DNA of 63,612 bases, filler included, from Diploschistes diacapsis (lineage: Eukaryota): the NCBI GenBank assembly GCA_023645945.1. It is 17 parts of 17 records of this genome, joined end to end, with 100 filler letters (N's around TTAATTAATTAA, not from the genome) between each part and the next. Parts side by side here need not be neighbours in the genome. Positions count along the whole stretch, not along the records: positions 38,452 to 59,249 come from JALAIB010000325.1; 16 more parts are not named here. The stretch is one strand, 5' to 3'. The stretch's first letter is position 1; each line of letters begins with the position of its first letter. Under the pieces are notes generated by a model. It made no database searches. It had not been told where the DNA came from and saw only the letters and a program-made list of their open reading frames with translations. The translations under genes were made by a program, and so were the position numbers. Below, piece by piece: positions 29,162 to 63,612 of this stretch.

Positions 29162-29231
29162 CACCGAAAAATAAGTATAAGTATTAAATAAAAGAGAATC
29201 CTAAATCGTGGGACAGCGATGTCTTTTTCAT

Positions 29232-31450: not shown

Positions 31451-31627
31451 TATAATAGATACCTATAGCAGTCCGCTGGAAACGGAAGATCTCAGAATTA
31501 ATCCCGCGCCAAGGCCGCGGTCCGCATAAAAAGAATTGTCTGGAGAAATCTCTTACTTTCTTTTTTAGAGATTAGTTCATGAATACTATCATTATATCTA
31601 TCAAACTACTGCATATCATCTCTTACA
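31451..31627 (+). mobile_element. 3' LTR, family E
   Basis: TATAATAGATACC..CATCTCTTACA (mutated TGTAA..TTACA termini), with a purine tract upstream. Confidence 0.75.
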
Positions 31628-33381: not shown

Positions 33382-33572
33382 TGTAACAGATAGCTGTGAC
33401 AGTCCTCTCCGGGCGAGCGGAGGAACTCAGTCCTAGCGCCGCGCCAAGGCCGCTCCAAGGCCGCAGGTCATAAGAGGAGTTTTTACAGAGGGATCTCCTC
33501 TTTTCTTCTCTAGAGATTAGTTCATGAATACTATGACCATTACTATCACACTACTGCATTTCATCCTTTACA
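33382..33572 (+). mobile_element. Solo LTR, family E (191 bp), with 5-bp TSD AAAAC
   Basis: TGTAACAG..CCTTTACA flanked by AAAAC at 33377-33381 and 33573-33577. Confidence 0.9.
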
Positions 33573-33624
33573 AAAACGACATAACATTTTAATAACATAA
33601 AATTATTTTATCATAAAAACCGTA

Positions 33625-33985
33625 ACGTGTTTGACGGGGAACCGGGCCACCCCCAGAAGTGGGCCACCTCTCATTATAACTTTCATCTTTTTCTTCGATT
33701 TTTTCAACAATGACTACCTCGCATCGTAATAATTCGATTCTAATAAAATTTAATATTAACGACTATTTATAGGCCCTAAATTTTTAACAATATATTAACG
33801 TTCGAGAAGCTGTTTACGCATTTAAAGTTCCTCGTTTAATTATTATGCGTCGATTCATTAAATTATAATTACGTTCTAATAATCACGAATCGAGTTAAAT
33901 CCTTTTAAATTCTAAAGAAAAGATATTAATACGATAGATTATACGTCTTATATAAACCGGCTTTCCTATATCGCCTGCGTTAATA
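33625..33985 (+). mobile_element. pogo/Fot1-type DNA transposon 5' end with inactivated transposase (ATG 33710)
   Basis: Starts TA|ACGTG with a duplicated GGGCCACC motif. Translation NVREAVYAFKVPRL..RSNNHESS*ILLNSKEKILIR*IIRLI*TGFPISPAL fits the psq-HTH + CENP-B HTH pattern. Confidence 0.85.
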
Positions 33986-34085
33986 NNNNNNNNNNNNNNN
34001 NNNNNNNNNNNNNNNNNNNNNNNNNNNNNTTAATTAATTAANNNNNNNNNNNNNNNNNNNNNNNNNNNNNNNNNNNNNNNNNNNN

Positions 34086-34486
34086 AATCTCTGTTAAAAA
34101 AAAATATAGCAGAAGAAGAAGATAGAATAATTATAGATCTTGGACTATCTTTTAGAAAAAAGGCTTTAAGATAATAAAAGTAACGAATATAAATTGATCC
34201 CGAATAAGAACTTAAGATATTTATAAAAATAAACACGTTCTAAATTTATAAAAACTATAACGACGTTTTTATATAATTAACGACTCTTTTAATAAAGTAA
34301 ATAAATAAATAAATAAAATTACCGTTCTTTCTTTCTACCCACGACTAAATAGAATGATTTTTTAGACCTTTTACTTATCACGTGACCCGTGTCACCCTGA
34401 TTGGACTATATATAAGGAATGGTTGGGAAGTGCCCGACTAGCTGTTGCGTGCCAAGTACTACCGACTAGTACCTTGGATCGTAACA
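34086..34486 (-). mobile_element. Family C LTR (truncated by contig edge)
   Basis: The first 110 nt on the minus strand differ at only one position from 24321-24430. Confidence 0.88.
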
Positions 34487-34554
34487 TGTCCGTGCCGAGA
34501 AAATTTTTGCTGCGGTGTCTGTGTCAGTGTCCGTGGCACGAAACGGCCAGCCTA
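34487..34554 (-). mobile_element. Terminus of hAT-like element (family D), interrupted by LTR C
   Basis: Ends GTGGCACGAAACGGCCAGCCTA, the reverse complement of the ends at 61680 and 63395. Confidence 0.75.
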
Positions 34555-34746
34555 ATCTATTAATAATAGATTTATTTAAATAGCTATTTATTAACGACAG
34601 CGCTATCGCGATAACTTTATTATCGACGATCAATTATTATTTTAAATTATATCAAAACACCGCCATGGTCTTTATAAATAAAGACGTGTTTATTTTTATC
34701 AATAATTTTAATTATTGCTCGAATTTAATTTATATTCGTTATTTTC

Positions 34747-35140
34747 TGTTGAGCAGGCAGACGGAAGGCATGGCTGTGAGCTCGGCTTATTCCGGGAGGT
34801 TTACTGAGAGAACCTGGGAAGTTCAGTTCAGATGAACTTACCGAAGTTTAGTTTAGTTCATAGAACGCCCCTACAGGAATACTATACAACCAGGGGCTGA
34901 GCCTAATCTGGAAGGATGACGTGTAGCTGCAATCTGTAGGCTGAATGGTTCAGATTCGAAAAGGTAAGGAAGAAACTATTTAAGTAGGAGGAGGGCACAA
35001 ATAAATAGTCTGGGTGCCAGCCCTACCAGGGTTCAACCCTTGAACCTATAAACGTTCAGGATGTTCCAGTTCAATTTAATTAAACCTTATAGAATCCGGT
35101 GGAATCCTGATTAAACCGATTAGAAATAATATAAATAATA
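34747..35140 (+). mobile_element. Copia LTR family A, split by a family B solo LTR
   Basis: TGTTGAGCAGGCAGACGGAAGGCATGGC start. A-like sequence resumes after 35073. The right boundary is approximate. Confidence 0.7.
34861..35068 (+). mobile_element. Solo LTR family B (208 bp) with GTTCA target-site duplication
   Basis: T(A/G)GAAC..GTTCCA inverted termini. GTTCA at 34856-34860 and 35069-35073. Confidence 0.78.
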
Positions 35141-35303
35141 AAATTTAAATTTTAATATATTTATTATATTCCGTAAAATATCCGAATTTATATAATAAAA
35201 TTATTTTTTAAAATAAAAATTTAAATTTTAATAAATTTATTATATTATTAAATAAATTATAAATCTGAATTTTTACATTTATTTTATATTAATTATTTCT
35301 TAT

Positions 35304-35441
35304 TAGAACGCCCCTACAGGAATACTACACTACCGGGGGCTGGGCCTAATCCGGAAGGATTACGTGTAGCTGCAATCTGTAGGCTGAATGGTTCAGATTC
35401 GAAAAGGTAAGGAAGGAACTATCTAGGTGGGAGTAGGGCAC
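35304..35441 (+). mobile_element. LTR family B, second copy (truncated by contig end)
   Basis: Direct repeat of 34861-34998 with a few substitutions. Confidence 0.82.
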
Positions 35442-35541
35442 NNNNNNNNNNNNNNNNNNNNNNNNNNNNNNNNNNNNNNNNNNNNTTAATTAATTAANNN
35501 NNNNNNNNNNNNNNNNNNNNNNNNNNNNNNNNNNNNNNNNN

Positions 35542-38122: not shown

Positions 38123-38451
38123 ATAAGGTCAAGGATTTAAAAGAGATAAAAAAGCTTTTAGGAATGAGAGTTCAGCGATAGCGTAGTTCAGGTTCAGGTT
38201 TAGTAAGTTTAGCTAAACAGACCCTAGATTAAGAAGCATACGTCGAAAAGATGCTCCAACGTTTCAAGATGATAACGGATATATACAAAAATTAAAAGAT
38301 ACCGTTCAATAGATACGACGGCATTAAATCAGATAAAAATCCTCCCAAACANNNNNNNNNNNNNNNNNNNNNNNNNNNNNNNNNNNNNNNNNNNNTTAAT
38401 TAATTAANNNNNNNNNNNNNNNNNNNNNNNNNNNNNNNNNNNNNNNNNNNN

Positions 38452-39818
38452 CCCTTCCACCGTCCGTCCCTCTCCCCTCCAGCCGACTCTCCCTCTCGTC
38501 CATCAGCATGTCAACCTTGTTCAGCGCCCAGTTCAGCCTGTTCTTCAGCCCCTTCACGCTGGCCTCCAGCTGCTCCGTCTCCTTCAGCTCGCGCATGCCC
38601 GCCAGCTCCATCAGCAGCACGAGCCGGCAGATCACGGTGCTGAGCAGGTAGCGCCACAGCACGCTGTTCATGATGTCCCACACCGCGATGAACACCAGGC
38701 TGGAGAACAGCATGGTGCCGAACAGCAGGTGGAAGAAGGCCATGAAGCTGGCCACGCAGTTCAGCAGGACCGCGAGCCGGCTCATCCGCTTGTGCTTGAG
38801 CAGCGACTCGAGGCCCTTGGGCTGGTTCGCGCAGATGGTGAACTCCTTCTGCAGCCACGACAGCTCGGCGCGGCGGTCGAGGAAGGTCTTGCTGCGCGTC
38901 AGCGGCGTGCTGGCCACGTCGCCGTTCGCGGCGCTCCTGCGGATCCGCTTCTCCGTGTGCGCAATCTCGACGTTGTAGCTGACGGCGGCCACCAGGTGGA
39001 TGGCGAAGGGAATCAGCGCCCACGCCAGCAGGCCGTAGTTCAGCGTGCAGCTCCAGCTCAGGATGGTGAGCGTGCCGAGCTCGATGGCGGTCTGGAAGAG
39101 GTTCGCGATGGAGCCCAGGACGAGCAAGTATTGCAGGGTGCCCATGATGCCGGCGCGCCAGGAAGGCTGCTTGAGGATCGCGACGCGGTTGACGCCCGTG
39201 CCGACGCAGGTGGCGGGGTCGTCGTAGGTGAAGATTCGCGTGGGCCAGACCGAAGGTGCGCCGATTGAGAGGAGGACGGAAAGAAGTGGGCGATGGGTTG
39301 AGAGGAGCGAGACTTCTGCTATGCGGGGCCCGAGCGTTGCGAGGAGAGTTGGCTAGCATAACAGAGTTAGCAAGGCAGGCAAAATGTTTGGCATCGCAAT
39401 ACGAATACCAAATGGGTTGAGAGACAAGAGGATGTTCGATTCATCATTCTGGGAGTGCTCCAGTCCAATTGATGGCAACACTTACCAGAATACCCAAAAT
39501 GACAGCCCCGGCTTGGTAGTTTTGGATGTAGGAAGGCCGCATGTTTGCCAGCATACAATCCTCGACGATGTAGCACCAGCCGAGAGGGCCCGAACCATTG
39601 TATTCTCCAAGTGCTTCGGACTGCCAGTAGGCTTGCACGGTGTCATTGCACACGGTAGTGGACAGGTTAGTGAGATACCCGACTTGGCCTGGATCAGCCC
39701 GGTCGTACCAATAGAACCAGTTCCGGAATTTCTCTGCCTGTACTATGGGAAGGGCAGCAAGAAGGAAGAGTGTGGAAAGGGAAGACATTGAAACCGCGCT
39801 CACAAACCGAGCAGACAT
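38452..39818 (-). CDS. Fungal multi-pass membrane protein of unknown function with signal peptide; exons 39818 (or 39788)-39486 and 39352-38452+, 3'-truncated
   Basis: Signal peptide MSSLSTLFLLAALPIVQA, a Cys-containing ectodomain, and intron GTAAGT..GCTAAC..TAG joining AVILGIL|PTLLATLGP in frame with ORF 38396-39145. Several hydrophobic helices and a coiled-coil-like tail. Confidence 0.8.
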
Positions 39819-41981
39819 TGCGAAATGGAGTAGATACGGCCCAGATGATTGAAAGCAGACTTGAGGAATCAAGAGCTGCAAAGCGCAAGAAATAACAGAT
39901 TTCTTATTGTTCAGCGGTCTGTAGTCGCCAAGCAGAAACAAGGCCGGCGCGACGACGAAGGAACAGAGAAAAGCCATCTACAGCATTTAGTACGCACCCA
40001 ATTCCCCCCGCTTTAGAGAAAGCCGTGTTGCAGAATGGGATGATTGAAGGCGACTGGACTGGTACCGGCCTGAACCTAGTACAGCGTCGTAGCGTTCTGT
40101 AGCATGGGCCGAAATGCCAGCGGTTCTCGATGTCAGCGGTTCCCGATGATAGATTAGTGTCAGGCTTTTGTCTTGAAGAAGTCTAGCAATCAACATTCGT
40201 CTCAGCCGTGCCGGCACCAACTCGGTAAAGAGTGGTGCTTGACCATTCAAAGTTCATGTTGTCCCGAGTAGTACTTAGACTTTTTAGGGGGGAGGTTCTG
40301 AGCTAATAGTTTATAATAGGTATATTGAAGCTTGAGGTTGCAGTGAGCGGAAAAGTCTAATCCTAGTTTAGTCTAGTATATATCTTAGCCAAACACTTTG
40401 AAGATGGTGATGGTGATGGTGGTGATGATGATCCCACCTCATTTTCCTCCTTTATGCTGCCAAATAAATGCTGCATCAGCCCATGAGCTCTGACAGCGAG
40501 ATCCATAAGTCCATAACGTTGAAATCCGGGAGTGGGAGTATTTGATATGAAGAACATATTAAAAGCAAAGCCGTGAAGCTTATCCTATAGCGACAAAAAT
40601 GAACGGCATCTCTTTCACAGACCAAAATCCCTAATCAAATGAATAACGATAACGATGGAGATACATGTTGCCAGCACTCAAGCTACCCCTTGAGTGAGCG
40701 GAGAACAGTCAACTGCATGATATATGCTGCGAGAAGCGTGCGTACTATACGAGAGCCATAGCGTCAGCGTTTGAGAACGAGCTACCCTGTCAAGTGGCAT
40801 TCTTGGAGGGGGAACGAAGCTTTCAAGGTCTTGTATTTGATTCCCAACGTTGCTTTGTACGAATTTTGAGGTCGAAAAAGCTTTGCAGGCTCAGCTTCGA
40901 ATAAAGGATTTTCGAGCGTTCGGGTTTCTCAAGGTCGGTGCCTTCCCATCCGTGGTCGCTCTGGTTACTCCTTCGATTCCGCTTAGACAAGGAAGAGAGC
41001 CTTTACTTTTCTGTGGGCTACGCTAGATATGAGAAGGAGAAGACTGGAATAGAAAAGCTCAATAAGATTAGTCTCTTCCAATAAGGAAGTAACGGGATGA
41101 GATTAAACGTCGGAAGAAAGGTAGAAGGATGTATGTTCCTCATACACAACGTTAGTAGAATACTGTATCACGTAGAGTTTTATTATTGGTATAAAGGGTT
41201 GAAAAACACGTGTCACGGCGCTAAGAACGGTAAAATCCAGAATAAATAGCGACAAGGGAAGGAAGGTATCCGCATGCTAGGATAGAAGAACAAAATATAT
41301 GCATTAACAACGTAGGCAGGAAAGTGTGGTTATCCGTCTGCACGGTACAAAGTACAAAGGTGCATCACGCAGGTACCTAGCTTGCTTCATGGGAAGAAAT
41401 TGTAGGTGTTCCAGTCATAGCTCGCTTTGGCCGACAGCAACCGTGTCTAACCAGGGCTCTCTGCCCGATTCATGTACGTGATATATACACACACGTCCAA
41501 ACTTTGGAGCGGCTGCGTCTCTTAACAAGGCAGTAATTAGGCTGAGAAGCAGGAAGCAGACCAAACCTTGTTGCATTGTTGCACTCGACAAATATCTTCA
41601 ACGTTGAAGCCCGTAGTTGCCTCCCTTTCTTTTCATTACTTCCGCACCATCCTCAAGTTCTTCTCGGTCGCCGTATACATCCGATCGTTTTTGTAATATT
41701 ATGCATCGAATCGAAGCCGCGTATATTCGTTAGCCTCCAGAATAATTCCAACCCGATATCGAGAGCATATCACGCTTCGCCGTAGGCAAATAAAACAAAG
41801 TGAAGAGTACAACACTATTCCCAACAGAACCGAGAAAAATGGGAGTATAGCAAACTCGCTAAGGTCGGACTCTGAAAGGCGGTCGCGAAAAATCATGGCT
41901 GGGTATCTCAACATAGTAAATGGCATAAATGTGTGAAAAAACCAAAAAAGTGTCTCAAAACGCAGAGAGCGGTAGTTGTCG

Positions 41982-44900
41982 TTAAAGAGCAAGACCAGTG
42001 CCGGCTGCTGTCCAACGATACAGTGAGAGCACTTCGCGCCGGAGTTGCTGCTGCTGGCCAAAGTCTTCCGGGATCCGGCCCTTGACCTGGACCAAAGCAG
42101 ATCTCATCACTTTCCTAAAGTTACGCTATTCCACAGGTGTTAGGGCGGAGTCTGGCGAAGGATCAAGCAGTTGCCAAGCTTACCTGATACTCGGTATTCA
42201 GCGTGACAACACACGCTTCAACGGCTCGGACTATTGTGCTGCAAGCATTCACCACGTTCGAGCTCGCTTCGCCTTGAAGCTTGTCGGCAATGAGCAAAAG
42301 GAGGAAACTTCCTTGCAGGAGGTAAATGTCAAAGAAGAAAGGCATGAAACCAAGATCCGGGTCGTGCTCGAGAATATCGGCGACGGCTTCGGCGCCGCTG
42401 ACGGCGTGTTGCATGGCAGACATGAACGACTGCGACGAGATCCACAGGTCCGAGTCGTCGAGGAGGGAGATGGGGTCCCATTTGCCGTGAAGAAGAATAT
42501 GGAGCACGTGCAGCACGTGGGTGCCGTAGGCAATTACAATCTTGCTCTGTAGAACACTTTCCGTCATGCGCGACGATCCGGAGGCAGCCGAGCGAACTGA
42601 TGGTGTGCCGGCCTCTGCACGGTATTCTGGGTCCACGAAGCGTGCCTCGAATCCTTTCAAGCTCTCTCTGTAGACCTCAAGGTGCTGGGTTATTTCAGCC
42701 GCCTGTTGGTCCCAGTCGGACGTCTGACGAAAGGTGAGGCCGAATCGAGGGTGGTTGCGAGCTTGATTGAGTTCGACCACTTCGCCCAAGATAGTCATCA
42801 ATGGGGTAAAGTATCCAAATATGCTGTGGGAAGTACATTCGAAGGTCGGACCACGACGACGTGGTGGGCAGGACGGATCAGCAAACATGCTGGACCCCCC
42901 CGTGTAGACGACGTCAGCCTGCCACCTGTTTTCCGAAACAGGCTGCAAAAGATCTGCACATTCGGCATCAAGGAGGAAGAGGGGTTTGTTGTAGGCGAGT
43001 GCCAGATGACGGTCGACCGTGTAGAGAAGCCACCACATGCGGCGTCGTTCTTCCCGTTCTTCTTCCGTGTAGGTTCCAGGGGGCGTATTTAAAGGATGGG
43101 CGGACATGCTCCTGCTCCTGCGCTGGTCTCCCATGTCGATGTCAACGTCACCGTCAGCGTCGACATCATCCGGATGAGAAGACCTTGGGCGGGATGGCGG
43201 AGGATTTGGCGGCAATTCACGCCCAAGCTTCAGTTCTCGAGCGAGAGACCACGCAGCATTCCACCATCGCAGACTTGCCGCCTTGCATTCCGATGCCGAA
43301 ACCACGGTAGCAAGGTGGAAATACGTTGCAATGTCATCGAGGGTGGCGGTGGGGCCGTCACCGTCTGACATATGGTCGCCATTGGACGGTACGCCCAGAC
43401 CGCTCAATGATACGCCGTTGGCAATAAGATTGGTGCCGAAACTTATGGAAACATCAATGCCTGGCCCATGGATCAAAGGTCTCAAGAGCCCGACGGTCAA
43501 CTCCAGGAGCTTTTGACAGATAGGACCTCGGGCAGAAGGGGGAGACGCCAAGAACGGGGCATCGCTGGTTTGAGCAGATACCCAGAGCATGCTTGCCAGA
43601 AGGGCAGAGCTGCATTGCCTCGGGTGGGTGGGATGCAAAAAGGATTTCTTCCGGAAAATGAAGCCCAACAGGTACGGTGAGAACGGGTGCATTTGTGCGG
43701 ACGAAAAGCTTGTGAAATAAAGATCTAGCAGATCGCATGCCAGAGAAATGGGGATGACGCACTTGAGCTTCGAGATGATTGGTTGAAGAACGGGATACCG
43801 TAGAGTGTTCTGGGCGCCAAGCAAGTTACTTGGGAAGTTGCTGCTATTCGGCGAAGGCGTTGAAAGCCAGCCGGGAGATGCATTGACTGCGAGGAAGTTC
43901 GCCAACGGACTGTCGGCGGTTCTTGTGAATGGATAGTGGTTTTGTACAAGTGGCTCTTGCGCGTTCATCGGTGGAAAGCCGGCATCGTTGTAACATGCGA
44001 AGCTGCTGGGAGTGCCGAGTGCTTGCGGAAGCTGCTGCATCATTGATGGGCCCATAGGAACTTGCCCATTGATATGGTGTATGACCACCGTCTGGTCTGG
44101 AACTATGTTGTAGTTGTTGTTGACCGGCATAATCGCGGAACCTGCTTCCATGGAACTTCTCTGGGAACTATCTTCCGGAATTCCATCCAGTGGTAGGATG
44201 TGGTTGCTCTGTATTCCGTCCGAGCTCATGCCCATGCTGTGTGGTCTCATGACCGGGTGATCGACCATATGGCCGCCATTTGGCTGAGGTGTCATTGATT
44301 CTTCCGAGACCGTGCTTCGGGACCTCGATGGCATTGCAGAACGGGGCGGTGAAGGAAGCCCGCTCTGTGCTAGAAGGCTGCTATCGACACTCGTCCCAGA
44401 GATGACGGCAGCATTGTGGTCTTCGGGGAGTGTTAGTGTGACGGGACTGTCGGCTCCCGATCCAGTGCCAGCTGCTGCGGCCGTTGCTTGCTGCTGAGCA
44501 ATGTCTTTGCGTGAAGCCTTCCCTCGCTTCTTCCTCTCCCGGAAGTACTCACAGGCAAGACTGCACTCTTGGATTCAGTGTCAGTCCAGGTCACAGGGGC
44601 CACGACAACATCCCGAATGCTTACCTATACAGTGAGCGCATGGGGTTTGGCCGTCACATTTCGTTCGCAACTGGTTGCACTGATCGCAGGCTCGGCTTAT
44701 CCTTCGTCTTACTGAACTTGGGCTGCTCCTATTGTCAGTTGCATGACTGCCGTGTCTTGAATCTTTGCTTTTGCTAATAACGTTGATCGGACTGCGCAAA
44801 GTGTCGTATGGGTGGTGTCGTACCCTCGTGGCGCTTTTCATGACTGGGCCAATTCCATGGCCTCGGAGCGACAGTGGCTGGACTGGATGGAGTGCGAATG

Positions 44901-45054
44901 GCGATGCATTGCTGAAAGACTCCAAGCCGGAAGTCTGTATTCTCTGGGAGCTAGCGTATTCAGAAGCGTGAAGGTTTATGTCGGAAGGCCGTGGACTGAG
45001 AATCTGAGGGTAGTTGTGGTGCAGCGTGGAAATCATGCTGGAGGATTCCGTCAT
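41982..45054 (-). CDS. xlnR: Xylanolytic Zn2Cys6 transcription factor XlnR/Xyr1; exons 45054 (or 45036)-44625, 44567-42184, 42125-41982
   Basis: [107 protein letters not shown]...GTGLAL*. Confidence 0.96.
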
Positions 45055-47739
45055 AGGCACAATGTCAATCCTCAAAGCTAAACCATGCGCCACGATCTTC
45101 TTTCATACCGGCACGCCTGGTGTGGCGGCGAGTTATCCTATCGCGGTAGAATCACCGAAACTTGGTGGCCGTGTTCGGAGAATCGGGACCTGATGTACGG
45201 AGGTATACCGAGTGTAACAGAGCAGGCTGGTGTGAGACTTCTTTGTATGGAGGATTTCCGCAGTGTAGAAGCGATAGAGTGCGCGATGAGGGGACTGAAG
45301 GATGATATAGCAATTGCCCCCATAGTGGGAATGAATGCACTAGACACCACCTGCTTTTGTACTATGTGGCAGCGCTGACAAGTACATGTAGCAGCGTAGC
45401 TCAGAGTGCTACACCATCCTCAAGTCATTGCCACACCGTATATCACCTTCTAAAGTATCACTAGAGTGGTGCAGTCGGGCACTACCAGGTACTACCTTCG
45501 TCCTACTACCAGAGCACGGGGTTTGGTAAATGATATGGCCAGGGAAAGAGCCCTAGAGAATAACAAAGTAAATCGTCGATGATCTTTAATCTGGCGCCAG
45601 ACCCAATGGACGAGAATTCAACATACCAAGCATATCGTTGACAGCATGTGGCCTGGCTGTTCGCTTGCCGGCCGTCTTCTTGAGACTGAAAATAGTATAC
45701 TGGTAGACTGGTAGTAGAGTCTCAATAGTATGGAGTAGCGCACAAAAAGGCCCTCACACTAGATTGGTATTTGACTTGAAGGGCAGTTATTAGAATTCTA
45801 GGGTGAAGGGCGTTGGGATGCTAGTGCGGCCAGCAAGCGTGGATGGGGTGGGAACGCTGCATGTAGCATCTGCAGGTAAGTTGCCTGGCCCAGGGCTCTC
45901 TCCTAGGCCTTTTTGTTTCGTAACAAAATCGCTCCCATTGTATCCAGTACCGTTATTGGATACCTGCCAAATGCTCTGTATGTAACATTCTTTTTCCAAG
46001 GCTGTCTGCCGCCGCTCCTCTAGTTTGCAGTTTGCCAGGAGACAGAGATACTCGAAGAAGGTGCGGAGAAAGTATCCTGGTAACCCACTGCAACCACACC
46101 AGTTTCCAACGGTCAAGAATAGGTCGTGCATACCTACTGTCTCTGGGAAAGAGAGCTTAGCAAGGCACCGAATGTTATGATGTCCAAGCAACGGAGGTTG
46201 AGCGACCACTACTATGTCCCGGACCAGTTTGGTACAATAGCTGTTGTTGTCTACGCTGGAAACCCACCACGATGACGCTCGTTGTATGACCGGCCTATGG
46301 CCAACACGATCTTGCTGGCATACCGCCATTTCTCTCCAAGCGAGCACCGAGCGGCACAACGTCGTCTGGACCAAGTAGAAATTCATTTGAGCCAGAGAGT
46401 CGGAGCGCCTCTTCGAACAACACAGATAACAGCGCGCAGAAGAGAACCTCTGTGATCTCATTCACCATGCTTTGTGCAATAACAACCAAGTCACCATAGA
46501 AAGAGGATTCCGCACAGAAAGCATGGAGAACGGGCTGTGTGGCTGCGACACCGCCTTTGTCAACGCATCAAGCAATCCTCTAACACTACCATCTAATAAC
46601 GGCGTCAAGTTCTTTTGCACAGCACGATGGAGACGATATACGCTCGGATACAAGTAGATGAGCGTGCAATATGATGAATGTCCAGTAGCCAGCGAGATAT
46701 GGCCGTAAATACTCCAAAAGGTCGCAAACATAAGCGCTTTGTGAAGATCGGAAATTCCATACCTTTGGCCACTGGGCTTAAGGCTTCTCCAAACTATCGT
46801 ACTCTGCTTTAATCGCTGCTGTTTGCAAGCAGACAATATAGAGCTGTTGAACCAGAGGCCTCACGAAAGATTCCTGGAGGGTCCAATTCCAGAGTTCGGG
46901 AAGTCTGCGATCCTAGGACCAGGAGCCGAAGGGTGAACGTGCTGCGAACTTCGCAGCCTCAGAGCCCGCTAGTCAGGAACTGAACTTCCTGTTTCATAAA
47001 AGTTTGTGGAGAACCCCTACGCTGTGGATCTTAGTGATGGCACTCAAATGCCGTGACTTTCACAATCCTGGTGTCCATCTCCTGGCCATTATATGTTCTG
47101 GCTCTCAATATTTCCCGGTACAACCGAGAGATTAATGGAAAGTCACAAGTCAAGTAGAGCAATAGACCATGTCGTAGGTATAGAATCCTTCAACAATGCA
47201 GAAGCTTCAAACCATTCTAGGAACGGAAGCTTGTTCACAGGTGCGGCGGTCTCAAGCTGGTCGAACCAAACAGTCATCCTCCGTAGGCTACAGTGGTAGG
47301 AATTTAGAGCCGGGAATCAACTCTGCATCGACCGCAGTGCTGCCGGCACCTGCCACTTTATCACATACAGATCGACTAGCTTGGTCAAGGTCTTGCGGAG
47401 TCACCTCTACACATGAGACCAAAGCTTTATTCCTGCATCGTTATCGATAACTGTTGGCCTTGGAAATCTCAGAACTGGCATTTCGAGCCACGGTCCCTTG
47501 ACCTGCCATAATGTGATCCTGAGAAGTGAAAAGCACGTGGGCAGAACTCAAATGCTAGTGCTATCCAATTCGACTTGCAGCGATGCAAGATGTTGTTGAT
47601 ACGAAAAGCCTTCAGGGTTTTGAGCGCACTGCAATTCGCTGGAGTATCTCTTCGTTCTTAAAAATTAATGTGGGGGTCATGCTGGGTGCCACGGAGAGCC
47701 ATTGTCACTCATGCTCAACCAGCCCAGACGGTTTCCCCC

Positions 47740-48217: not shown

Positions 48218-48402
48218 GCCTCCACCTCACCTCCACCTCCACCTCCACCTCCACCTCCACGCTCTCCGTTTACCTGTCATCGGTACGGTGGTTGTAGCTA
48301 TTTCTGTCCACAACGTCTGTGGCCTTCGGCCGAAGAGGCCAGTTTGGTTCAAGCTCCTTCCTCTCCTTCCTCTTCCTCTTCCTCTTCTTCTTCTTCTTCT
48401 TC
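48218..48402 (+). repeat. (CTCCAC)n and (CTT/CCT)n pyrimidine repeats
   Basis: Hexamer array about 48218-48260 and trinucleotide-type array about 48354-48402. Confidence 0.85.
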
Positions 48403-49603: not shown

Positions 49604-50557
49604 CTAGCCGTGGTTCCAGTCGATGAAATCCATCCATGGCTCTCTCGGCGAGGAAGAACTTTTTGGCGGTGAAGGGCTTTTTGGCAATGAAGGGCGTTTT
49701 GGTGAGGCAGGCTGCTTTGCGTCCGTCCTTATCGGTTTCGGAGACGAAGGGTGTTGCCCTTTTGCGCTCGGAGGCACCGGACTGCTCAGGCCCTGCTCAC
49801 TACCACCGCTGTCCTTGCTCTGCTTCCTGGCGTGATTCCGGGCTCTCCTTTCCCTTTCCTTGCTAGACAACGATCAGTGAGTGGAACAGCTGCAATACGA
49901 CTGCCATTACTTCCGAAATCCCTCGGGGTCCTCTCGCATCTTTCTGTCCCGCCATGCTTTATTACGTTTTCTGAATATAATCAGTATATATAGCATCTAG
50001 GAAATGATTATCAGCACCGTTTCTTCGCGTAGTATTCCGCGGAGTTTTCTTTTTTGTATTTTGCTTCTAGCCTTTTATTTTGTTCGCTAAATATAATCAG
50101 TAAATGAATGAGCCAAGATGTGCCCATCGTTACCCTTTCGTTTGCCTGCGTTGCTTAGGATCAGGACGCTGTCCTCTCGATTTACGAAAACGTGGTTGCG
50201 GTCTTTCGTCTTGTTTTCCATCCGCGCTTGAGCTAGGTTAGCCTTTTCCTTCTTTTCCTTCCCACCATTGTTCTTGAAGTGTTTCTTCAAAGCCGAGTGC
50301 ATTTGAACCTACTTATGTGCTTCTCCTGCTAGATTTTCTCGTGCGTCTCCCCCAGACTCTTTACTGGACCCCGAGCCTCCCCCGCTTGCCCGACGTCTTA
50401 ATGGCTTCGATGGGTGGAAGGGCAGATGGGCAACATGGCGTCGCTGACGACCATTGACCGGATTCCGAAGTCCGGTATCGTGAGCAATGAGTCCGCTCGA
50501 CCAAGCGTTGACGAGCACGGCGAAGATGGAGAAGGAAACAAGGATGAAATACCGCAT
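49604..50557 (-). CDS. Secreted, Lys/Arg-rich protein of unknown function, 241 aa; exons 50557-50313, 50226-50134, 50086-50018, 49970-49911, 49862-49604
   Basis: Signal peptide MRYFILVSFSIFAVLVNA. Four introns (86, 47, 47, 48 nt) with CTAAC/CTGAT branch sites give a 726-nt stop-free CDS linking ORF-track entries 50309 and 49604. Confidence 0.75.
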
Positions 50558-53451
50558 ACTGAGGGACAGCAAGCAGGTGCTGTATCACCTGAAAGACATA
50601 GAAGTGGTTGTGAGAGCAAAAACCATCAAGAAATACTTGTGCCCTTGCGATGTCCTTTATAAAACGATGCGTCTTGCAGCCCCGAGCAATGGCCTCTGCG
50701 CTTTTAACTTCCAAACTCAAACTGCTTGCATCGTGCAGGGCTAGTTCGTTTGATGTAGAAGCGCGCAATTCGCGAGGCGTCTTTTGCACCTGCGGCTAGT
50801 CGTCTGGCTAGCTGGTACGCGACAGAACTTTAAAGTTGTTTTGGGTGTACAAAAGTCAAACTGGATAACGATGCTATCTGGCTTAGGGATTCGACCACTG
50901 ACACTGATCGAACTTACGGGGGTTGATGATGCGAAGAACCATCCCCGGTCTCCTCGAGATCCCTTGCATCTTCCAAACTGATCGTGTCCAGAACTAGCAG
51001 ATGCACCACTCTACGCCCGCCGCCGCACGCAGTACATAAGACCTTTTGTCTAGATGAGAGATGGAACTGAGTCTTCATATACGAAGAACCCAACAAAAAC
51101 TCAGTCGAGTATCAACTGCCCGACCAAAACCCCAAATTGCATTCAAAAGCCGCAGAGGAACGCCATGAACCCACCATTCCACTTGCGCTAAACATCTTAT
51201 TTTCAACACCATTCTCAACAACTGGGCATTCAAGTTTCCCTCCCCTAGAAGCCCACTATACCCTCACATGTCAAGCAGCAGGCAGGCACGACTGCGCAGG
51301 AACAGAGACACCACCGCAGAGCATTTCAGAACACAGAAGCATAGGCGCAATGCGCGTTCCCTGCACGACGGTGCCCCGGTGGCGCATGCGACTGGCAGAG
51401 TTGTCCTCAGCGGCCGAAAACAAAGACCTCCATTTGACCGACAGCTCCAAGTGACCGCTCTTAAGCTGGAGGCTGGTTGGCGGCCCCTGGTCTGTCTGCC
51501 TGGATATCTGGGTAGTATGTAGCAGCAGTAAAGCAGGGCAGGAAAGGTATCACGGTGGATGCTCGATCTGCCTGCCTGCGGCCCGAACCTGTGCCCTCGT
51601 CTGCACCTGTACAGCGTTTTCCCAAAAGAGGCCTGCGACGGCGTGCCCTGCGGGCCCTGGGTCCCTGCACCGAGTCGCTGACTGGCTGGGTGCCAATTAC
51701 CAGGTCCCAGTATGGAGCAACCGTGCCCTGGTAATTCGCTCCTGGCAGTACTGCCAGGGCTGGTGAGATGCAATACTTCCCTTGACGGTGTATGGTCTTG
51801 GAAGTGGGTGTTATATTACAAGTAGTAGTATTGTTATTGTTGTTTCGTGCAGTGCAGTGCGTGGAGTACGCGAATGGTGGATCGGACGCCGTCGTGCTGC
51901 TGCGGAGGTGGTTTTTGATTGTGACTTTGCATACGAAGCTCCATGCAACGCAAGAGCAAAGAGTAACGTCCAGCTGTAGAAAGGTGGGTTGAGGCAGAGG
52001 GATGTGCGTTCGTGCAGTGGCGTTCGGGGTCCATGTATGGGGAAACTTCGGCACATACTAACCGTTACTTTGGCCGATCGTGTACGCAATGATGCAGGTC
52101 TGATTACGGTACCTGAGATCAATCCTTGTAGGTGGCACCGACTGCCGAGGTTCTGCCATGCTGGTTGGTGGCCAGATTGACACAGAGTTGGTAGTGTTGG
52201 GACAGACGACGATCTACTATATGGTGGTCATGGTTACACTATCCATTGTTGTACACATGTAGCGATCATAGAGCGCTTGTTAGGGACTTTTTTATTTGTT
52301 GGCAGAGGATCCTACGGGCGGAGACATGGAACGCTCAAGGGCGTGCAGCTAGAATAGAATAGAGACATCAGTAGCAAAATAGCATCAGGTTATCTGGGAT
52401 AGGGCGTGATTGATATTGTTCAGAACTCTTTCCGACAGAGTTTGGGACTGCTGATAATGGTATGCGTAGGGAGATATATTGTCGGAGGCTTGATAAATCT
52501 AGCTGAGGAATGAATGCTGAACATGTATAACATAGCAGGTCTCTCCCTCTTGGATAGGAGTTGGTCTTGGAATTCTCCAAACAGACACTGAGCGACGAGC
52601 AATCTTAATGGTAATAAAATTTCTCTATAACATGTTCCTATCTCTGAATTGCTGCCTCGTCAGACTGTGTTTATGGCGCAGACTTGCCTTGCATTTCACA
52701 CGCTTAGTAGTATACCGGCAGTCCTTGGGCAATGCCACAAAAACTCAATAATTTGCCTCTTGACGCCCTTCTACCTAAGCTTAGACCCTAGCAGAATAGT
52801 GGTGCTGACTTCGGATGCGGTAGGTGAAGGCGTCAGTCCATAGATTTCGAATTCGAGGCCGTGTATCAATCATCTAAAGAGAAAATGCATGGAATTGCGG
52901 TCCGTGTGAAATATGTCTCCATGATCGGGGCATAAAGAGGTCCCTGATAGAGGAGTGGGCCAGACGTAAGAAAGGACAAGAGATCGCATGGGACTGCAAG
53001 TCGCGGCGATTATAAAAAACATGCTCTGTAAGAAAAGAAGAAGGGCTTTCATGGAGAACTTCGCAGCGGCGACTGAGTGTCAGCTGTAAAGAACATTCAA
53101 CATCTTGGTACATTTAACAATGACTGCCCAATAATGAGCTGCAGCACATATTAGAAATTGAAGCAGACATGAAAGACTACTTAAGGGAACTCTTTCTTTC
53201 GGTATGGAGGTCCGCTATTGCAAGCTCCAAGGAGAGAAGCACTCAACCCCTATATATTTGGTTGGAAGTGATCCCAGATAGGCCAATTCACGCAAAATTG
53301 TATCGAAAGCCTCGCACTTTGTTCATCGGTTCGCTGTTGATGATTCAATTGTGCTTCGCAACAGGTGCAACTCAAAAGAGAAAAGATGAGGAAAGAGAAC
53401 TTGATTGAAATGGACAAAGCCGATTACTCAGCGGCAGAGCCTCATCTGGCG

Positions 53452-53514
53452 GAATAATAATAATGAACGACTGAATAATAATAATGAATGGCTGAATAAT
53501 AATAATGAATGGCG
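53452..53514 (+). repeat. 21-bp tandem repeat x3 (GAATAATAATAATGAATGGCT)
   Basis: Three adjacent near-identical units upstream of sulfite reductase. A (TTCATC/TTCATA)n array follows at about 53733-53792. Confidence 0.9.
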
Positions 53515-53715: not shown

Positions 53716-53856
53716 AGCTGTATTTGCACTTTTTCATATTCATCTTCATCTTCATATTCATCTCCATCTTCATTTTCATATTCATATTCATCCAAAACCT
53801 GAAGCGATATCAACTTGGGGGTATTTTGAGTTCATGATGCTGAATATAATCGCAGC

Positions 53857-58563: not shown

Positions 58564-61532
58564 ACGGAGGATGATGGCCTCAATTTAGCGTCCCTGAAGC
58601 ATATTGAGGGGTTTGTTTTGCTGCTGGGAGGTTGCTGCATTGGAATTCACGATGTCATGTCGATAGCTTGTTGCATGGAATGTACATAATATCTCAACGC
58701 GGATTTTGCCATGTGGACAGGTGTCGACGTTTGATGAAAGCAGACTTGGTTGCTGTTGATGGCAATCTTGCTTTTCTTCTCTTTTGAGACTTTCCTCGAA
58801 ATCTTGGGATAGGTAGAGTTTTGCCGCCCGCTCCGTTCACAAACCAGCAGCTTTCCAACTCCCAAATGCTTAGAGAAGTAACTACTTCAGCAGCCCCAGA
58901 TACTCACATCTAATCGTTGCAAGCAAGTGGGGATGCATATTTGGTAGGTAGCAAAGATTTCTCTTCACCGATTTGACTTACTTTCCCAAGACATACCAAA
59001 GGCGATGCACTTTCCTTACAGCCTAAACGGCATCGCTCTAACCAAGAAAGGAATAATATCAATATTTCGGAATTTCAAGCAGCCCTCCTTTCCACCCAGA
59101 AGACAGACACCCTTTCGAGCTGATCTCGGACACCAACTTTTTCGCCAGGAATAAAAGAGCTAGTGAGTATGCGGGCATCTCTCACGATCCAGCATTCTCG
59201 ACTCTCTAGCTCGTTTTCTAAATCCCCAGACAACCCCCCCCTTTTCCTCNNNNNNNNNNNNNNNNNNNNNNNNNNNNNNNNNNNNNNNNNNNNTTAATTA
59301 ATTAANNNNNNNNNNNNNNNNNNNNNNNNNNNNNNNNNNNNNNNNNNNNCCCCCCCCCCCCCCCTCTTCTTAGGAAATAATACCGGCTGTTCTGTTATAG
59401 GAAAGCAGACTGAGTGCGTTTGGCTCACCGACTCTCGCTGCAAGACGTGGCTTGTATTGCTACGCGGTGTGCGCGCTTTTTCTGGTAGGTACGAGTATTC
59501 TGGTATTATTATTTTTTGTATTTAGGTGTGTGAATCGTGTACGATGGGTGCGTGCGTGCGCGCGTGTGTGTGTTGGGTAGGTATCTTTCAGTAATCAAGC
59601 TGTCAAGCGTTACGGCGCTATATTCGAATGCAAATTTGATTGAGCTTTGTCGGTCGGGCCTTGGGGAAATGCCGGCGGAGATAAGGGTAGCCTTGGTTGG
59701 ATCAAGTCTGACACCTCATTACTTTACTATTACTATTGATCGCTTTGGATGCAGGACGTTACGTTTCAGTTCTTGAGAGAGCCAACACAACAGGGGATCT
59801 TCTGCTTCCGTACAGCCGTTGGAGTTGGAACTTGGAGGACAAATAACGGATGCCAACCTGTAAGAAAGGTTTGGACTGGCACTGGATAGTGGCACTGCTG
59901 AATTGCTAGCTTCGTCGCTGGAGTCCGTGCTTTACGATCTAGCACACTCTGCAGTGTGTAGGATAGCTTCAAATTAGCTCGACTCGGGTTTGCGGATCAC
60001 TTTGACGTCGTTGCCGTGGTAGCAGAGTGTCTCCATGTTGGAGCTTAGGAATGATCGGAAACAGCTGGCCGCACAACATTCCGGCTCCCTCGGAGTCTAT
60101 ATTTGTATTTGTTATTGTTTTTGTTCCTCTTCCCCTCCAGCAAAAAAACCCCCACTTAATAAGCTTCCTCCGACAAAGCACCGTGCGTCCAATAGAATGA
60201 CGAGCTGCATGACCGATATCGTCCTAGCTCTGAGCTGCATGCAAATCTTTTTCCGAACCTCTCAACTTTTGCAGGAGCCTCCTTCTGTTCGGGAAAGAAG
60301 AAGTATAAGCAGTGCGCACAAACCCAGAGAATACTGCTCAAGGAAGGAAGGTGCATCGTAAGTTGCTAATGAGCGTTTGCATGGGAGGAAGAACACACAC
60401 AGAGCTGCTAGCTTAGTGCAGCAGTAGACTGTAGACTGAGAGATAGATAGCTGTGACATGATCAGAAAATGCCTCTTTCGCCGACAGAGCCGGAGCTTCG
60501 TTCCCATTGACCGAGTCTGAATTTTTTTTCTCTCATAATTTGTGCCTGCAGCATAATCGCGCAAAGGAAATACTCGTGTAATCTTTTTTAATACATGTAG
60601 CATCCATCCATCCTAGGCCTCCTCCACTCTGTCTCTTTCTTCAGCAGATTGCTAGCAACAGCAGACCCTCCCCCCCCGGCAGCTGTGCTTAGCTGAGCTC
60701 CCACNNNNNNNNNNNNNNNNNNNNNNNNNNNNNNNNNNNNNNNNNNNNTTAATTAATTAANNNNNNNNNNNNNNNNNNNNNNNNNNNNNNNNNNNNNNNN
60801 NNNNCTTATTTGGTCTATAAAATTTAATCCGGCTGCGTTAAATAAACCTACCGAAATAATATTATCCTTAAAATACTATAAAATCTTTTCGTAATCCGGA
60901 AAATCGATCTTTAATATTAAAATAAAATATTTATAATTATCTAAATTATCCGAAAATCGCGTCGATCGGCTATCTTTTCTAAACATTTAATACGTCTTAT
61001 TATTAATTTTTAATTATCTTATCCTAAATTTATCCTTATAAATCCAATGTAATCTTGTTATTAAGATAGTTCTGTTTCCTTACTTATTCTTAAGCCTCAT
61101 GGCTCCGCATATAACCTTTAAATGCCGAAAATAATGAAAACGCTCGCGACCGTTAGAAACAAAATTTTTATATTAATACAAAATTTCTTTCTAAGCAAGA
61201 TACCTTTAGTTTAAGATAATATATAATTTCCCCTTTGCTTATAACCGCAGCTCTATACCCCTAAATTGGGGAAAGTCATCCGCCTTACTTTCATGACAAC
61301 TCGTATAGACGTAATAGATAAAAAAAGATTACCGAAAATGACAGTTCCAGAACTTTCCCGATCACAGGACCCTAGGATCCCCTGCTTAAGCTCGATAACC
61401 ATAAAATTAGCTAGCTTAACGCTTTCGTTAAATACCGAAGAATCTCTAATCGCTAACAAAGAGAACTATTTATTAGGAATTATCGATCTACGCGTATCAT
61501 CTTTTATTATAAATAAATTAAGGTCGACCGAG

Positions 61533-61679
61533 TGTTATGATCTCTATCTATACAAGGTATACACGAGTAGGATCAAGGTGGGTTTAATCTCTGTTAGAAG
61601 AGGAGTGTGATAGGAGAAGAAGATAGAACAGTTACAGATCTTAAATTATCTTTAAAAGAAGGTTTTCTAATGATAGAAG
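61533..61679 (-). mobile_element. Family C LTR 3' end, interrupted by family D element
   Basis: Near-identical to 30934-31073. Homology stops exactly at TAGGCTGGCCG. Confidence 0.85.
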
Positions 61680-62158
61680 TAGGCTGGCCGTTTCGTGCCA
61701 CGGTCACTGACACGGACACTGCAGCAAAAATTTTTAAAACACGGACACTGACACGGATACGACAGTTAAAATTTTAAAACACGGATACTGACACGGACAT
61801 TATATTGCAGTAAAAGCACGGACACGGATATTATAATTAAAAATTTTAAAATATTGATACTGATACGGATATTATATTTCCGTAAATCCACCGAAATACT
61901 GCGGTGAATCCACCGAAATACTATAATGAAATTTTTTTAAAAAAATAAAAGCGTAAGAAATAGGCGTGATAATTCCAGAATTATTAAAATTAAAAAAATA
62001 ATTTAAAATGTTTCGGTGAATGCACGGATACGGACATCGTAATAAAAAAATTTTCGACACGGATACTGACACGGACATTATATTATAATAAAAATACGGA
62101 CACGGATATCGCAATAAAAATTTTCTCGATACGGATACTAACACGGACATTATATTAT
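61680..62158 (+). mobile_element. hAT-like element (family D) terminus with long subterminal repeat array
   Basis: TAGGCTGGCCGTTTCGTGCCACGG followed by many CACGGA(C/T)A motifs. Confidence 0.75.
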
Positions 62159-62258
62159 NNNNNNNNNNNNNNNNNNNNNNNNNNNNNNNNNNNNNNNNNN
62201 NNTTAATTAATTAANNNNNNNNNNNNNNNNNNNNNNNNNNNNNNNNNNNNNNNNNNNN

Positions 62259-62663
62259 AGTTACGGGACCAGGAGTTACGTGATACGCTTACTACTCGCG
62301 CTTATTTTCGTAAGCGGCGAACAAGCTTTCGCTATCGCTCGACGGTCGCGCTCATTCTTATAAATAACGAGCCTCGAGAACACCGTTCGCTAAACTTACG
62401 ATAAACGGCGAGCGAATTAATTATATATAAACACGACTTTACTTTCGTAGAAAAAGATATGTTTACTTTTATAAATATCTTTAACGATTACTCGAGATTA
62501 ATCTATATTCGTTATTTCTATTACTTATAAAGCCTTTTTTCTAAAAACAGTCCAAGATCTATAACTACTCTATCTTCTTTTCCTACCACACTCCTCTTCT
62601 AACAGAGACCAAACCCACCTTGATCCTACTCGTGTATACCTTGTATAGATAGAGATCATAACA
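62259..62663 (+). mobile_element. Family C LTR (5'-truncated)
   Basis: Ends GAGATCATAACA. Reverse-complement homologue of 62792-63247. Confidence 0.85.
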
Positions 62664-62791
62664 ACGAGGAAAAAAAAGATTTATTTAACGGAGATTAACG
62701 GAAACGATTTCCGAAACTTTTAAAAAAAAAGGCTAAATTTTACGGATATTTAAAAACTAATTTAACTGAGCCGGCGACATTACGATCAGTT

Positions 62792-63247
62792 TATTATGAT
62801 TTCTATCTATACAAGGTATACACGAGTAGGATCAAGGTGGGTTTGGTCTCTATTAGAAGAGGAGTGTGGTAGGAAAAGAAGATAGAATAGTCACAGGTCT
62901 TAGACTGTTTTTAAAAAGAAGGCTCTCTAAATAATAGAAGTAACGAATATAAATTAATTTCGAGTAATAACTAGAGATGTTTATAAAAATAAATATACCC
63001 TTTTCTACGAAGGTAGAGTCGTGCTTATATATAATTAGCTCGCTCGCCGTTCATCGTAAACCCAACGAACGGTGCCCTCGAAACTCGCCGCTTATAAAAA
63101 TAAACGCGACCGTCGAGCGATGGCGAAAGCTTACTCGCCGCTCACGAGAATAAACGTGAACAATGAACGCATCACGTAACCCCTAGTCCCGTAATTGATC
63201 TATATACAAAGCTAGGACGTGCCAAGTCTGATACTTGGATCGTAACA
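62792..63247 (-). mobile_element. Family C LTR, full length
   Basis: Plus-strand termini TATTATGAT..GATCGTAACA. No matching TSD seen. Confidence 0.85.
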
Positions 63248-63394
63248 GCAGCGTATTATTTCTTAATTCTTAATTTATTTGCAACGGCGATATAGCCGTT
63301 AATAGTTAAAGGTCCTACAGGCTACCCATGAGCATTATACTGTTGTTGGGATCGTTAACGGTTTCAACCTTTTTATTTAATTGATTAACAAGAC

Positions 63395-63612
63395 TAGGCT
63401 GGCCGTTTCGTGCCACGGTCACTGACACGGACACTACAGCAAAAATTTTCAAAACACGGACACTGACACGGACACGATAGTTAAAATTTTAAAATATTAA
63501 TACTAACACGGACACTACATTTCCGTAAATCCACGGATACGGACATTATAATTAAAATTTTTAAAATATTAATATTAATACGGATATTATACTTCCGTAA
63601 ATTCACGAACAC
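63395..63612 (+). mobile_element. hAT-like element (family D) terminus
   Basis: Near-identical to 61680 onward over the first about 95 bp. Confidence 0.78.

What the first reader, a model, noticed from the sequence alone, without database searches (positions are those of the whole stretch)
49604..50557. Hidden 5-exon gene for a secreted, nucleus-targeted-looking basic protein (candidate effector)
Seen: splicing four short introns gives 241 aa. It has a signal peptide (MRYFILVSFSIFAVLVNA), a pro-region ending in LRRR, and a Gly/Ser linker. A very basic core follows (RFRKSRGQRPDPKQRRQTKGEQNKRLEAKYKKENSAEYYAKKRKRNKAWRDRKMREDPEGFRNKERERRARNHARK), then an SP/PK-rich tail and a terminal acidic-aromatic motif WMDFIDWNHG. 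There are no cysteines. Established: dibasic RR/KR sites are Kex2 targets, KKRKR is a classical monopartite NLS, and SPK(K/R) motifs occur in histone H1 tails. Inference: a secreted protein with an NLS, a charged helical repeat (KKENSAEY / MREDPEGF) and an activation-domain-like end could act in the nucleus of a partner or host cell, or bind nucleic acid outside the cell. It sits alone in a gene-poor stretch of about 8.8 kb between two housekeeping genes.
Basis: partly seen in the sequence, partly recalled or inferred. Interest (0 to 1): 0.8.

Follow-up and report, generated by a model that had tools for sequence, protein, structure and literature searches.

The report
Lichen fungus secreted basic repeat family
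This is a real spliced gene from a small family, seen only in one lichen-forming fungus, whose secreted, strongly positively charged proteins look built to bind nucleic acid and may act on the fungus's algal partner or on competing microbes, though neither role has been shown.

Summary
The five-exon gene is confirmed (minus strand, 50557-49604; 243 or 241 aa depending on the first acceptor). It is not an orphan: the genome holds 8 copies (28-52% identical), 5 with introns and 3 intronless, and one is annotated at NCBI as a hypothetical protein of the lichen fungus Diploschistes diacapsis. All share a signal peptide, a pro-region ending in a Kex2-type site, a basic helical core, a Ser/Pro tail and a terminal W-M-x-[FW]-[IL] motif. 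The core is a 23-residue repeat broken at Asp-Pro-Glu, built by tandem duplication of an exon with its 47-48 nt phase-2 intron. Two copies have a head-to-head partner gene with the same repeat under another leader. No outside homologue, Pfam family or informative fold was found. Best reading (0.4): a Kex2-matured, cysteine-poor effector-like protein binding nucleic acid inside a partner cell, working like the STPR helical repeat without being one. Rivals: cationic antimicrobial, matrix binder, peptide precursor, decaying copy. No expression data were available.

The parts
50656..50661 (-). TATA-like element 104 nt upstream of the ATG
   Evidence: TATA-like hexamer within 300 nt in 7 of 8 family members; 11% of random 200-nt windows carry one
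50313..50557 (-). Exon 1: signal peptide, pro-region, Gly/Ser linker
   Evidence: aligned with 7 paralogues
50504..50557 (-). Signal peptide, aa 1-18, ending V-N-A
   Evidence: hydrophobic stretch in the first 30 aa and none beyond in 8 of 8 members; no SignalP available; dN/dS 0.35
50390..50503 (-). Pro-region, aa 19-56, ending in the Kex2-type site LRRR (50401-50390)
   Evidence: invariant Gln38 and Arg56; [LP]xxR in 8 of 8, RR in 7 of 8
50233..50312 (-). Intron 1 (80 nt; 86 nt with the next AG); acceptor not shared with paralogues
50134..50232 (-). Exon 2: 5' part homologous to paralogues' intron 1, 3' part a truncated first repeat
   Evidence: DNA alignment
50087..50133 (-). Intron 2 (47 nt, phase 2), one of three homologous short introns
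50018..50086 (-). Exon 3 (69 nt = 23 codons): one basic helical repeat
   Evidence: 69 nt in 4 of 4 four-intron members
49971..50017 (-). Intron 3 (47 nt, phase 2, GTGCTG donor shared with paralogue C227)
   Evidence: beats all 200 shuffles in 13 of 13 comparisons with other family introns
49911..49970 (-). Exon 4 (60 nt): repeat ending in the Asp-Pro-Glu-Gly-Phe cap
   Evidence: 60 nt in 4 of 4 four-intron members
49863..49910 (-). Intron 4 (48 nt, phase 2)
49604..49862 (-). Exon 5: last basic helix, Ser/Pro-rich tail, terminal motif, stop codon
49616..49636 (-). Terminal motif W-M-x-[FW]-[IL] (here WMDFIDW), 10 residues from the end
   Evidence: present in 8 of 8 members; a DNA pattern built from it gave 6 matches in the genome, all in family members, against 3 for the reversed control; dN/dS 0.29

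Best explanation
A member of a lineage-restricted family of secreted, effector-like proteins of a lichen-forming fungus. Shown by sequence comparison: the gene is spliced as described, has 7 paralogues, and its core grew by tandem duplication of a phase-2 exon with its intron. Predicted: the signal peptide is removed after residue 18, Kex2 removes the pro-region after Arg56, and the core forms long basic helices kinked at Asp-Pro-Glu with no globular fold. Inferred, not shown: the mature protein (about 185 aa, net charge about +22) enters a neighbouring cell, most likely the algal partner or a competing fungus. There the tandem 23-residue helices lie along DNA or RNA as the STPR repeat does, the Ser/Pro tail is a flexible, possibly phosphorylated spacer, and the terminal Trp motif recruits a protein of that cell. 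Nuclear entry would rest on overall basic character, not on a conserved NLS.
For: Family of 8 at 28-52% identity among the 7 aligned. [LP]xxR ends the pro-region in 8 of 8, fitting the Kex2 motif in PMC8528282. C48 repeats pro-region plus mature unit twice, each with the site. Repeat spacing is 23 in 6 of 8 intervals; an aromatic residue at position 17 in 11 of 18 repeats and K/R at position 20 in 16 of 18. AlphaFold models of paralogue C3981 give helices broken at the Asp (repeat region pLDDT 80.5, pTM 0.42). STPR is a 23-residue basic repeat, two-residue linker plus helix, that runs along the DNA major groove (PMC4856987). Constraint is strongest on the signal peptide and terminal motif, as expected of a short protein-binding motif. 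0-1 Cys per member; extracellular effectors are often Cys-rich (recalled). Two partner genes carry the same repeat (E 8e-4 and 9e-4 among 5199 sequences, best non-family 0.13) and end in a basic KRPRKP motif. Secreted nuclear proteins are known in other fungi: SP7 of a mutualist, CgEP1, MoHTR1/2, Mlp124478.
Against: No experiment or expression data. NLS matches are at chance level and absent in 3 of 8 members. STPR's defining residues are not met (Thr/Ser2 0 of 18, Arg9 2 of 18, Tyr16 0 of 18, Glu1 8 of 18). The only PDB sequence match of note is a designed helical repeat protein (E 0.006), so Asp-Pro-Glu may be just a generic helix cap. The tail's last 40 residues are net -3 to +5, not acidic as activation domains usually are. 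Mature regions hold 2-11 further KR/RR sites that Kex2 could cut. Repeats differ widely between copies (28% mean identity), which fits charge-driven binding better than sequence reading. No route for protein delivery into lichen algae is known to me.
Confidence: 0.4

Rival explanations
1. Secreted cationic antimicrobials: the basic helices bind and cross or disrupt bacterial or fungal envelopes, the terminal Trp-rich patch helps membrane insertion, and the pro-region keeps the protein inactive in the producer.
For: Mature net charge +15 to +32. Lichen fungi are predicted to carry large, fast-turning-over antimicrobial repertoires (10.64898/2026.09.03.749242, passages). Charge and hydrophobicity weigh in the AMAPEC predictor, and an antimicrobial effector can also act in host nuclei (PMC13127573, passages), so this rival does not exclude the best reading. 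Rapid divergence of the core.
Against: The helices are poor in aliphatic residues and rich in Glu/Asp as well as Lys/Arg, unlike typical lytic amphipathic peptides (recalled). The terminal motif has only a weak hydrophobic moment (0.12-0.33) and the partner family lacks it. No antimicrobial predictor was available.
Confidence: 0.25
2. An extracellular structural protein: the polycation cross-links acidic polysaccharide, extracellular DNA or mineral surfaces in the thallus, with an O-glycosylated Ser/Pro stalk.
For: No catalytic or folded domain. Ser/Thr/Pro-rich segments of secreted fungal proteins are commonly O-mannosylated (recalled). Needs no uptake into another cell.
Against: Does not explain the regular 23-residue register with spaced aromatic residues, the constrained terminal motif or divergence into 8 dissimilar copies.
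Confidence: 0.15
3. A Kex2 peptide precursor: the core is cut at internal dibasic sites into short cationic peptides, as in Rep1-type repeat proteins.
For: 2-11 internal KR/RR sites per mature region; this class is described in PMC8528282 and PMC4617103. C48 is evidently a two-unit precursor.
Against: Internal dibasic sites are not in a fixed register across repeats and only 0-2 per protein have an aliphatic P4 residue, against 8 of 8 at the pro-site.
Confidence: 0.1
4. The family is functional but this copy is decaying: the deletion of the ancestral intron-1 acceptor damaged splicing.
For: About 50 nt with the family's branch site and acceptor are missing; the replacement acceptor lies unusually close to its branch motif; no database protein matching this copy turned up.
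Against: All exons are open, five acceptors and exon skipping all keep the frame, the other splice sites, TATA-like box and terminal motif are intact, and there is no RIP signature over the gene.
Confidence: 0.08

Closest known systems
K2PP effectors (Kex2-processed pro-domain effectors such as SnTox3, ToxA, SIX1/4/6; PMC8528282)
   Same: Signal peptide, unstructured pro-region, LxxR/RR site in the first half, lineage-restricted multigene family.
   Different: Here the mature part is Cys-poor, non-globular and polycationic, and the producer is a lichen symbiont; cleavage is only predicted.
STPR domain of silkworm FMBP-1 and animal homologues (PMC4856987)
   Same: Tandem basic repeats of 23 residues, a short cap followed by a helix, Glu often at position 1 and K/R at position 20.
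   Different: Thr/Ser2, Arg6, Arg9, Leu10 and Tyr16 are not kept; no sequence hit; STPR proteins are intracellular and mostly animal, these are secreted and fungal. A working analogy, at most convergent.
Secreted nuclear effectors of fungi: SP7 (Rhizophagus), CgEP1, MoHTR1/2, Mlp124478 (PMC4617103, PMC10189769)
   Same: Secreted proteins that act in a partner's nucleus; SP7 is a repeat protein of a mutualist.
   Different: No sequence similarity found to any database protein outside this genome; nuclear entry and DNA binding are shown for those and only inferred here.
TAL effectors of Xanthomonas (PMC4617103)
   Same: Layout: tandem helical repeats followed by a C-terminal region with a possible activation motif.
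   Different: TAL repeats are 33-35 aa, near-identical and base-specific and are injected by type III secretion; here 2-4 divergent 23-aa repeats and the ordinary secretory pathway.
Unannotated secreted proteins of Xanthoria parietina (10.1101/2024.08.16.608140)
   Same: Lichen-fungus secreted proteins with no domain and poor global structure scores; 205 such proteins were reported, 33% of them thallus-upregulated.

Membership tests
K2PP effector | N-terminal signal peptide | tested here: met
   Hydropathy and V-N-A type end in 8 of 8; no SignalP run
K2PP effector | Disordered pro-region ending in KR, RR or LxxR in the first half | tested here: met
   [LP]xxR 8 of 8, RR 7 of 8; region without secondary structure and pLDDT under 50 in the paralogue model
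K2PP effector | Pro-region absent from the secreted protein | not testable with these tools
   Needs proteomics or in vitro Kex2 cleavage
STPR domain | Repeat of strictly 23 residues | tested here: inconclusive
   6 of 8 spacings are 23; the others are 17 and 42
STPR domain | Conserved Glu1, Thr/Ser2, Arg9 | tested here: not met
   Glu1 8 of 18, Thr/Ser2 0 of 18, Arg9 2 of 18 (K or R 10 of 18); position 2 is partly fixed by my anchor pattern
STPR domain | Profile or structure match to STPR proteins | tested here: inconclusive
   No STPR row in Pfam scans, PDB sequence searches or fold searches; short helical repeats are poorly served by these searches
STPR domain | Binds the DNA major groove | not testable with these tools
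   Needs a binding assay or structure
Nuclear effector | Conserved nuclear localisation signal | tested here: not met
   K[KR]x[KR] in 5 of 8 members and in 63-93% of their shuffles
Nuclear effector | Delivered to and active in a partner nucleus | not testable with these tools
   Needs localisation in alga or plant cells
Acidic activation domain (Gcn4 WxxLF type) | Aromatic/leucine cluster such as WxxLF | tested here: inconclusive
   W-x-x-[FW]-[IL] in 8 of 8: similar spacing, not the motif of PMC13004512
Acidic activation domain (Gcn4 WxxLF type) | Net acidic context over 30-40 residues | tested here: not met
   Last 40 residues net negative in 1 of 8 (range -3 to +5); window copy +2
Kex2-processed repeat peptide precursor (Rep1 type) | A Kex2 site between successive repeats in fixed register | tested here: not met
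   Dibasic sites are scattered, 0-2 per protein with aliphatic P4

The most novel reading that the evidence does not exclude
A lichen fungus has built secreted transcription-factor mimics from scratch: a modular nucleic-acid-binding repeat convergent with STPR, encoded one helix per exon and multiplied with its intron, joined to a terminal coactivator-binding motif, and delivered into the nucleus of its alga or of a lichen it overgrows. The head-to-head partner family would be the same binder without the terminal motif, acting as repressor or helper.
Probability: 0.15. Interest if true: 0.9.

Novelty: new variant of a known kind. Interest (0 to 1): 0.55.

Why it matters
How lichen fungi control their algal partners is open. 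Candidate lichen effectors reported so far are mostly folded look-alikes of pathogen effectors, and poorly modelled proteins were left out of that clustering (10.1101/2024.08.16.608140, passages). This family gives a concrete, testable candidate of another type: ten genes with a shared basic repeat, three of them intronless and easy to express, and a short conserved motif to mutate. If they act in an algal nucleus, that would be a direct molecular handle on the symbiosis. If they are antimicrobial, they are an unusual cysteine-poor type. The gene structure is also a clear case of a repeat growing by exon-plus-intron duplication, of intron loss in some copies, and of intron sequence becoming exon in this copy.

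Tried and rejected
RNA evidence: no RNA holder was listed, so no reads could be laid; this is no evidence either way. Outside homologues: 1 hit among 390 candidates, the query itself; 2 among 8000 scored; 3 among 1,835,955,588 representatives; all match genes of this genome. Partner-family leader: 0 of 247 candidates. Metagenome contigs: 599 and 161 pattern matches, none confirmed. Atlas: best 0.89, under the 0.9 lead level, and no usable hit. Fungal genomes other than the window's own were not searchable, and intron-rich genes are under-represented in these collections, so restriction to one species is not proven. Pfam: nothing near a cut-off. Fold searches: no Foldseek match at E 0.001; best Z 5.4 and 5.9, generic helices. 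Transposon origin: the repeat region found no non-family match in the genome, and of 13 matches to an Asp-Pro-Glu-Gly DNA pattern 6 were in the ten genes and the 7 others were unrelated. Location in AT-rich, RIP-marked blocks: not so for the window gene; paralogue regions are mostly 0.42-0.6 GC beside ordinary genes. Signal anchor or membrane protein: no hydrophobic segment beyond residue 30. C428 (E 0.75) was dropped as not a member. C48 was left out of the dN/dS, identity and tree calculations because its middle exons are unresolved. The tree is too weak to count intron losses. No complex prediction was run: no defensible partner. The spliced window protein itself was never folded or searched whole; exons and intronless paralogues stood in for it. 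Earlier findings were not available. Literature: 0 papers held all of lichen, effector, secreted protein, nuclear localization, mycobiont; some searches listed 3, 2 and 4 papers, none on this family by title or abstract start.

Full report
Observation. The gene lies on the minus strand from 50557 to 49604, on contig C2502 of the window's own genome. Removing introns 50312-50233, 50133-50087, 50017-49971 and 49910-49863 gives 243 residues without cysteine. The neighbours are a fungal transcription factor and a sulfite reductase; four long ORFs in the gap between them have no Pfam hit. No RNA run was listed, so splicing rests on comparison.

A family, not an orphan. Searches of the genome found seven paralogues, on C227, C48, C3904, C3157, C3624, C3764 and C3981; counts are lower bounds. 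The seven proteins aligned are 28-52% identical. The C3624 protein is identical to an NCBI entry named 'MAG: hypothetical protein [Diploschistes diacapsis]', and the C48 gene has a 406-residue NCBI model under the same name. That species is in Lecanoromycetes, Graphidaceae; that it forms lichens is recalled and fits PMC5832959 on the genus (passages). The label is that of a metagenome assembly. The copies sit singly among ordinary genes at normal GC, and the window copy has no RIP signature, unlike the AT-rich blocks of the window.

The splicing is supported three ways. In 4 of 4 four-intron members exons 3 and 4 measure 69 and 60 nt and all 16 introns are in phase 2 (my models, from candidates). 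The short introns are homologous to one another: the window's introns 2-4 are 52-73% identical to the other short family introns, and in 33 of 39 comparisons none of 200 shuffles reached the observed score. Three members (C3624, C3764, C3981) have no introns and encode the same layout in one frame. NCBI's C48 model uses the last two equivalent introns. The weak point is intron 1: the window copy lacks about 50 nt that hold the branch site and acceptor in the paralogues, so the start of its exon 2 is former intron. Five of 14 candidate acceptors and skipping of exon 2 all keep the frame, so the rest of the protein does not depend on this.

Anatomy. All eight have an 18-22 residue signal-like start and no later hydrophobic segment, a pro-region of about 40 residues ending in [LP]xxR (8 of 8; RR in 7 of 8), a basic core, a Ser/Pro tail, and W-M-x-[FW]-[IL] 7-14 residues from the end. 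The pro-site fits the Kex2 motif in PMC8528282 (first third read). C48 carries pro-region plus mature unit twice. Mature regions are net +15 to +32. The core is a repeat capped by Asp-Pro-Glu-Gly-aromatic, spaced 23 residues in 6 of 8 intervals; one exon encodes about one repeat, so the core grew by duplicating exon and intron together. AlphaFold models of C3981 show long helices broken at that Asp and no compact fold. Pooled dN/dS over 21 pairs of 7 genes is 0.35 for the signal, 0.76 pro-region, 1.08 linker, 0.62 repeats, 0.49 tail and 0.29 terminal motif; pairs are not independent and dS is near saturation, so these are rough.

A partner family. C3904 and C3157 each have a divergently transcribed gene about 1.3-1.4 kb upstream. 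These two have another signal peptide and pro-region but phase-2 introns around the same repeat: a profile from family repeats scores their exons at E 8e-4 and 9e-4 among 5199 sequences, the best unrelated ORF at 0.13. They end in a basic KRPRKP motif instead of the Trp motif. Only these two were found.

No outside relative was found, no Pfam family near a cut-off and no informative fold. Other fungal genomes could not be searched directly, so the range may be wider than one species.

The NLS is not evidence: 92% of shuffles of the core contain K[KR]x[KR], 39% contain five basic residues in a row, and 3 of 8 members lack the motif. The end is acidic only over about 12 residues; over 40 it is +2 here and net negative in 1 of 8 members. 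Its spacing recalls the Gcn4 WxxLF motif (PMC13004512, passages) without matching it. What stands is a constrained terminal motif of unknown partner.

Mechanism. The closest working model for the core is STPR, a 23-residue basic repeat of a two-residue linker and a helix that runs along the DNA major groove (PMC4856987, first fifth and passages). The period and predicted shape agree; the defining residues do not (Thr/Ser2 0 of 18, Arg9 2 of 18, Tyr16 0 of 18), and the best PDB sequence match is a designed helical repeat that uses the same cap. So this is not an STPR protein but may work like one. I put 0.4 on a Kex2-matured protein that binds nucleic acid inside a neighbouring cell and recruits a protein there with its terminal motif. 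Secretion and pro-region removal are predictions; uptake, nuclear entry and binding are inferences. Precedents are SP7, CgEP1, MoHTR1/2 and Mlp124478 (PMC4617103 and PMC10189769, passages). Rivals: cationic antimicrobial 0.25 (not exclusive, since an antimicrobial effector can also reach nuclei), extracellular polyanion binder 0.15, peptide precursor 0.10, decaying copy 0.08.

Novelty. I found no paper on this family or on nucleus-targeted lichen effectors, a library that lacks most subscription papers. The combination of Kex2 leader, exon-encoded 23-residue basic helices, a conserved terminal Trp motif and a head-to-head sister family makes it a new variant. Interest 0.55: real, unusual and testable, but without functional evidence.

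Noticed in passing
L048 4592-5603 (+) = G000:C3904; L049 about 5534-4293 (-) = G000:C3157: Second secreted family, head-to-head with two family members: different leader, same phase-2 exon repeat, long SPK-rich tail, basic KRPRKP end; 256 and about 331 aa; no database relative.
   Followed up: partly
L007 (G000:C48:2692-5919), minus strand: One family member holds two pro-region plus mature units in tandem; its middle exons are unresolved and look degenerate, and the NCBI model skips them.
   Followed up: partly
L009, L012, L024 (C3624, C3764, C3981): Three intronless family members, probably processed copies or intron losses; the tree is too weak to count events.
   Followed up: partly
window 50312-50134; paralogues' intron 1: Intron 1 of the paralogues contains an inner GTAAG-like donor, and in several copies its sequence reads as basic, protein-like text; it may hide a former or alternative micro-exon. 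In the window copy that position has become the branch site and acceptor.
   Followed up: partly
window 1-2900, 24500-35500, 60500-63612: Runs of short AT-rich contigs (GC 0.32-0.35) between N gaps, with RIP-like dinucleotide indices (TpA/ApT about 1.1; (CpA+TpG)/(ApC+GpT) 0.61-0.68), probably decayed transposons.
   Followed up: no
window 42163-45100 (-): Zn2Cys6-type transcription factor with Pfam Fungal_trans; it resembles the xylanolytic regulator XlnR (name recalled, not tested), notable in a lichen fungus.
   Followed up: no
window 38396-39980 (-): A spliced gene with a signal-like start and several hydrophobic segments, no Pfam family above cut-off.
   Followed up: no
L053 7851-9899 (-) = G000:C3764: A TPR-repeat gene resembling a fungal NLR-like receptor lies about 2.6 kb from one family member; the NLR reading is my inference.
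   Followed up: no
L050 4067-4152, L052 4530-4618, L053 7309-7360: A 50-90 nt element 86-88% identical near three family loci; also a 90-nt inverted repeat at L052 1182-1269. Possibly a small mobile element.
   Followed up: no
window 48219-48260, 48365-48402, 53456-53510, 53730-53790: Short simple repeats in the intergenic stretch.
   Followed up: no
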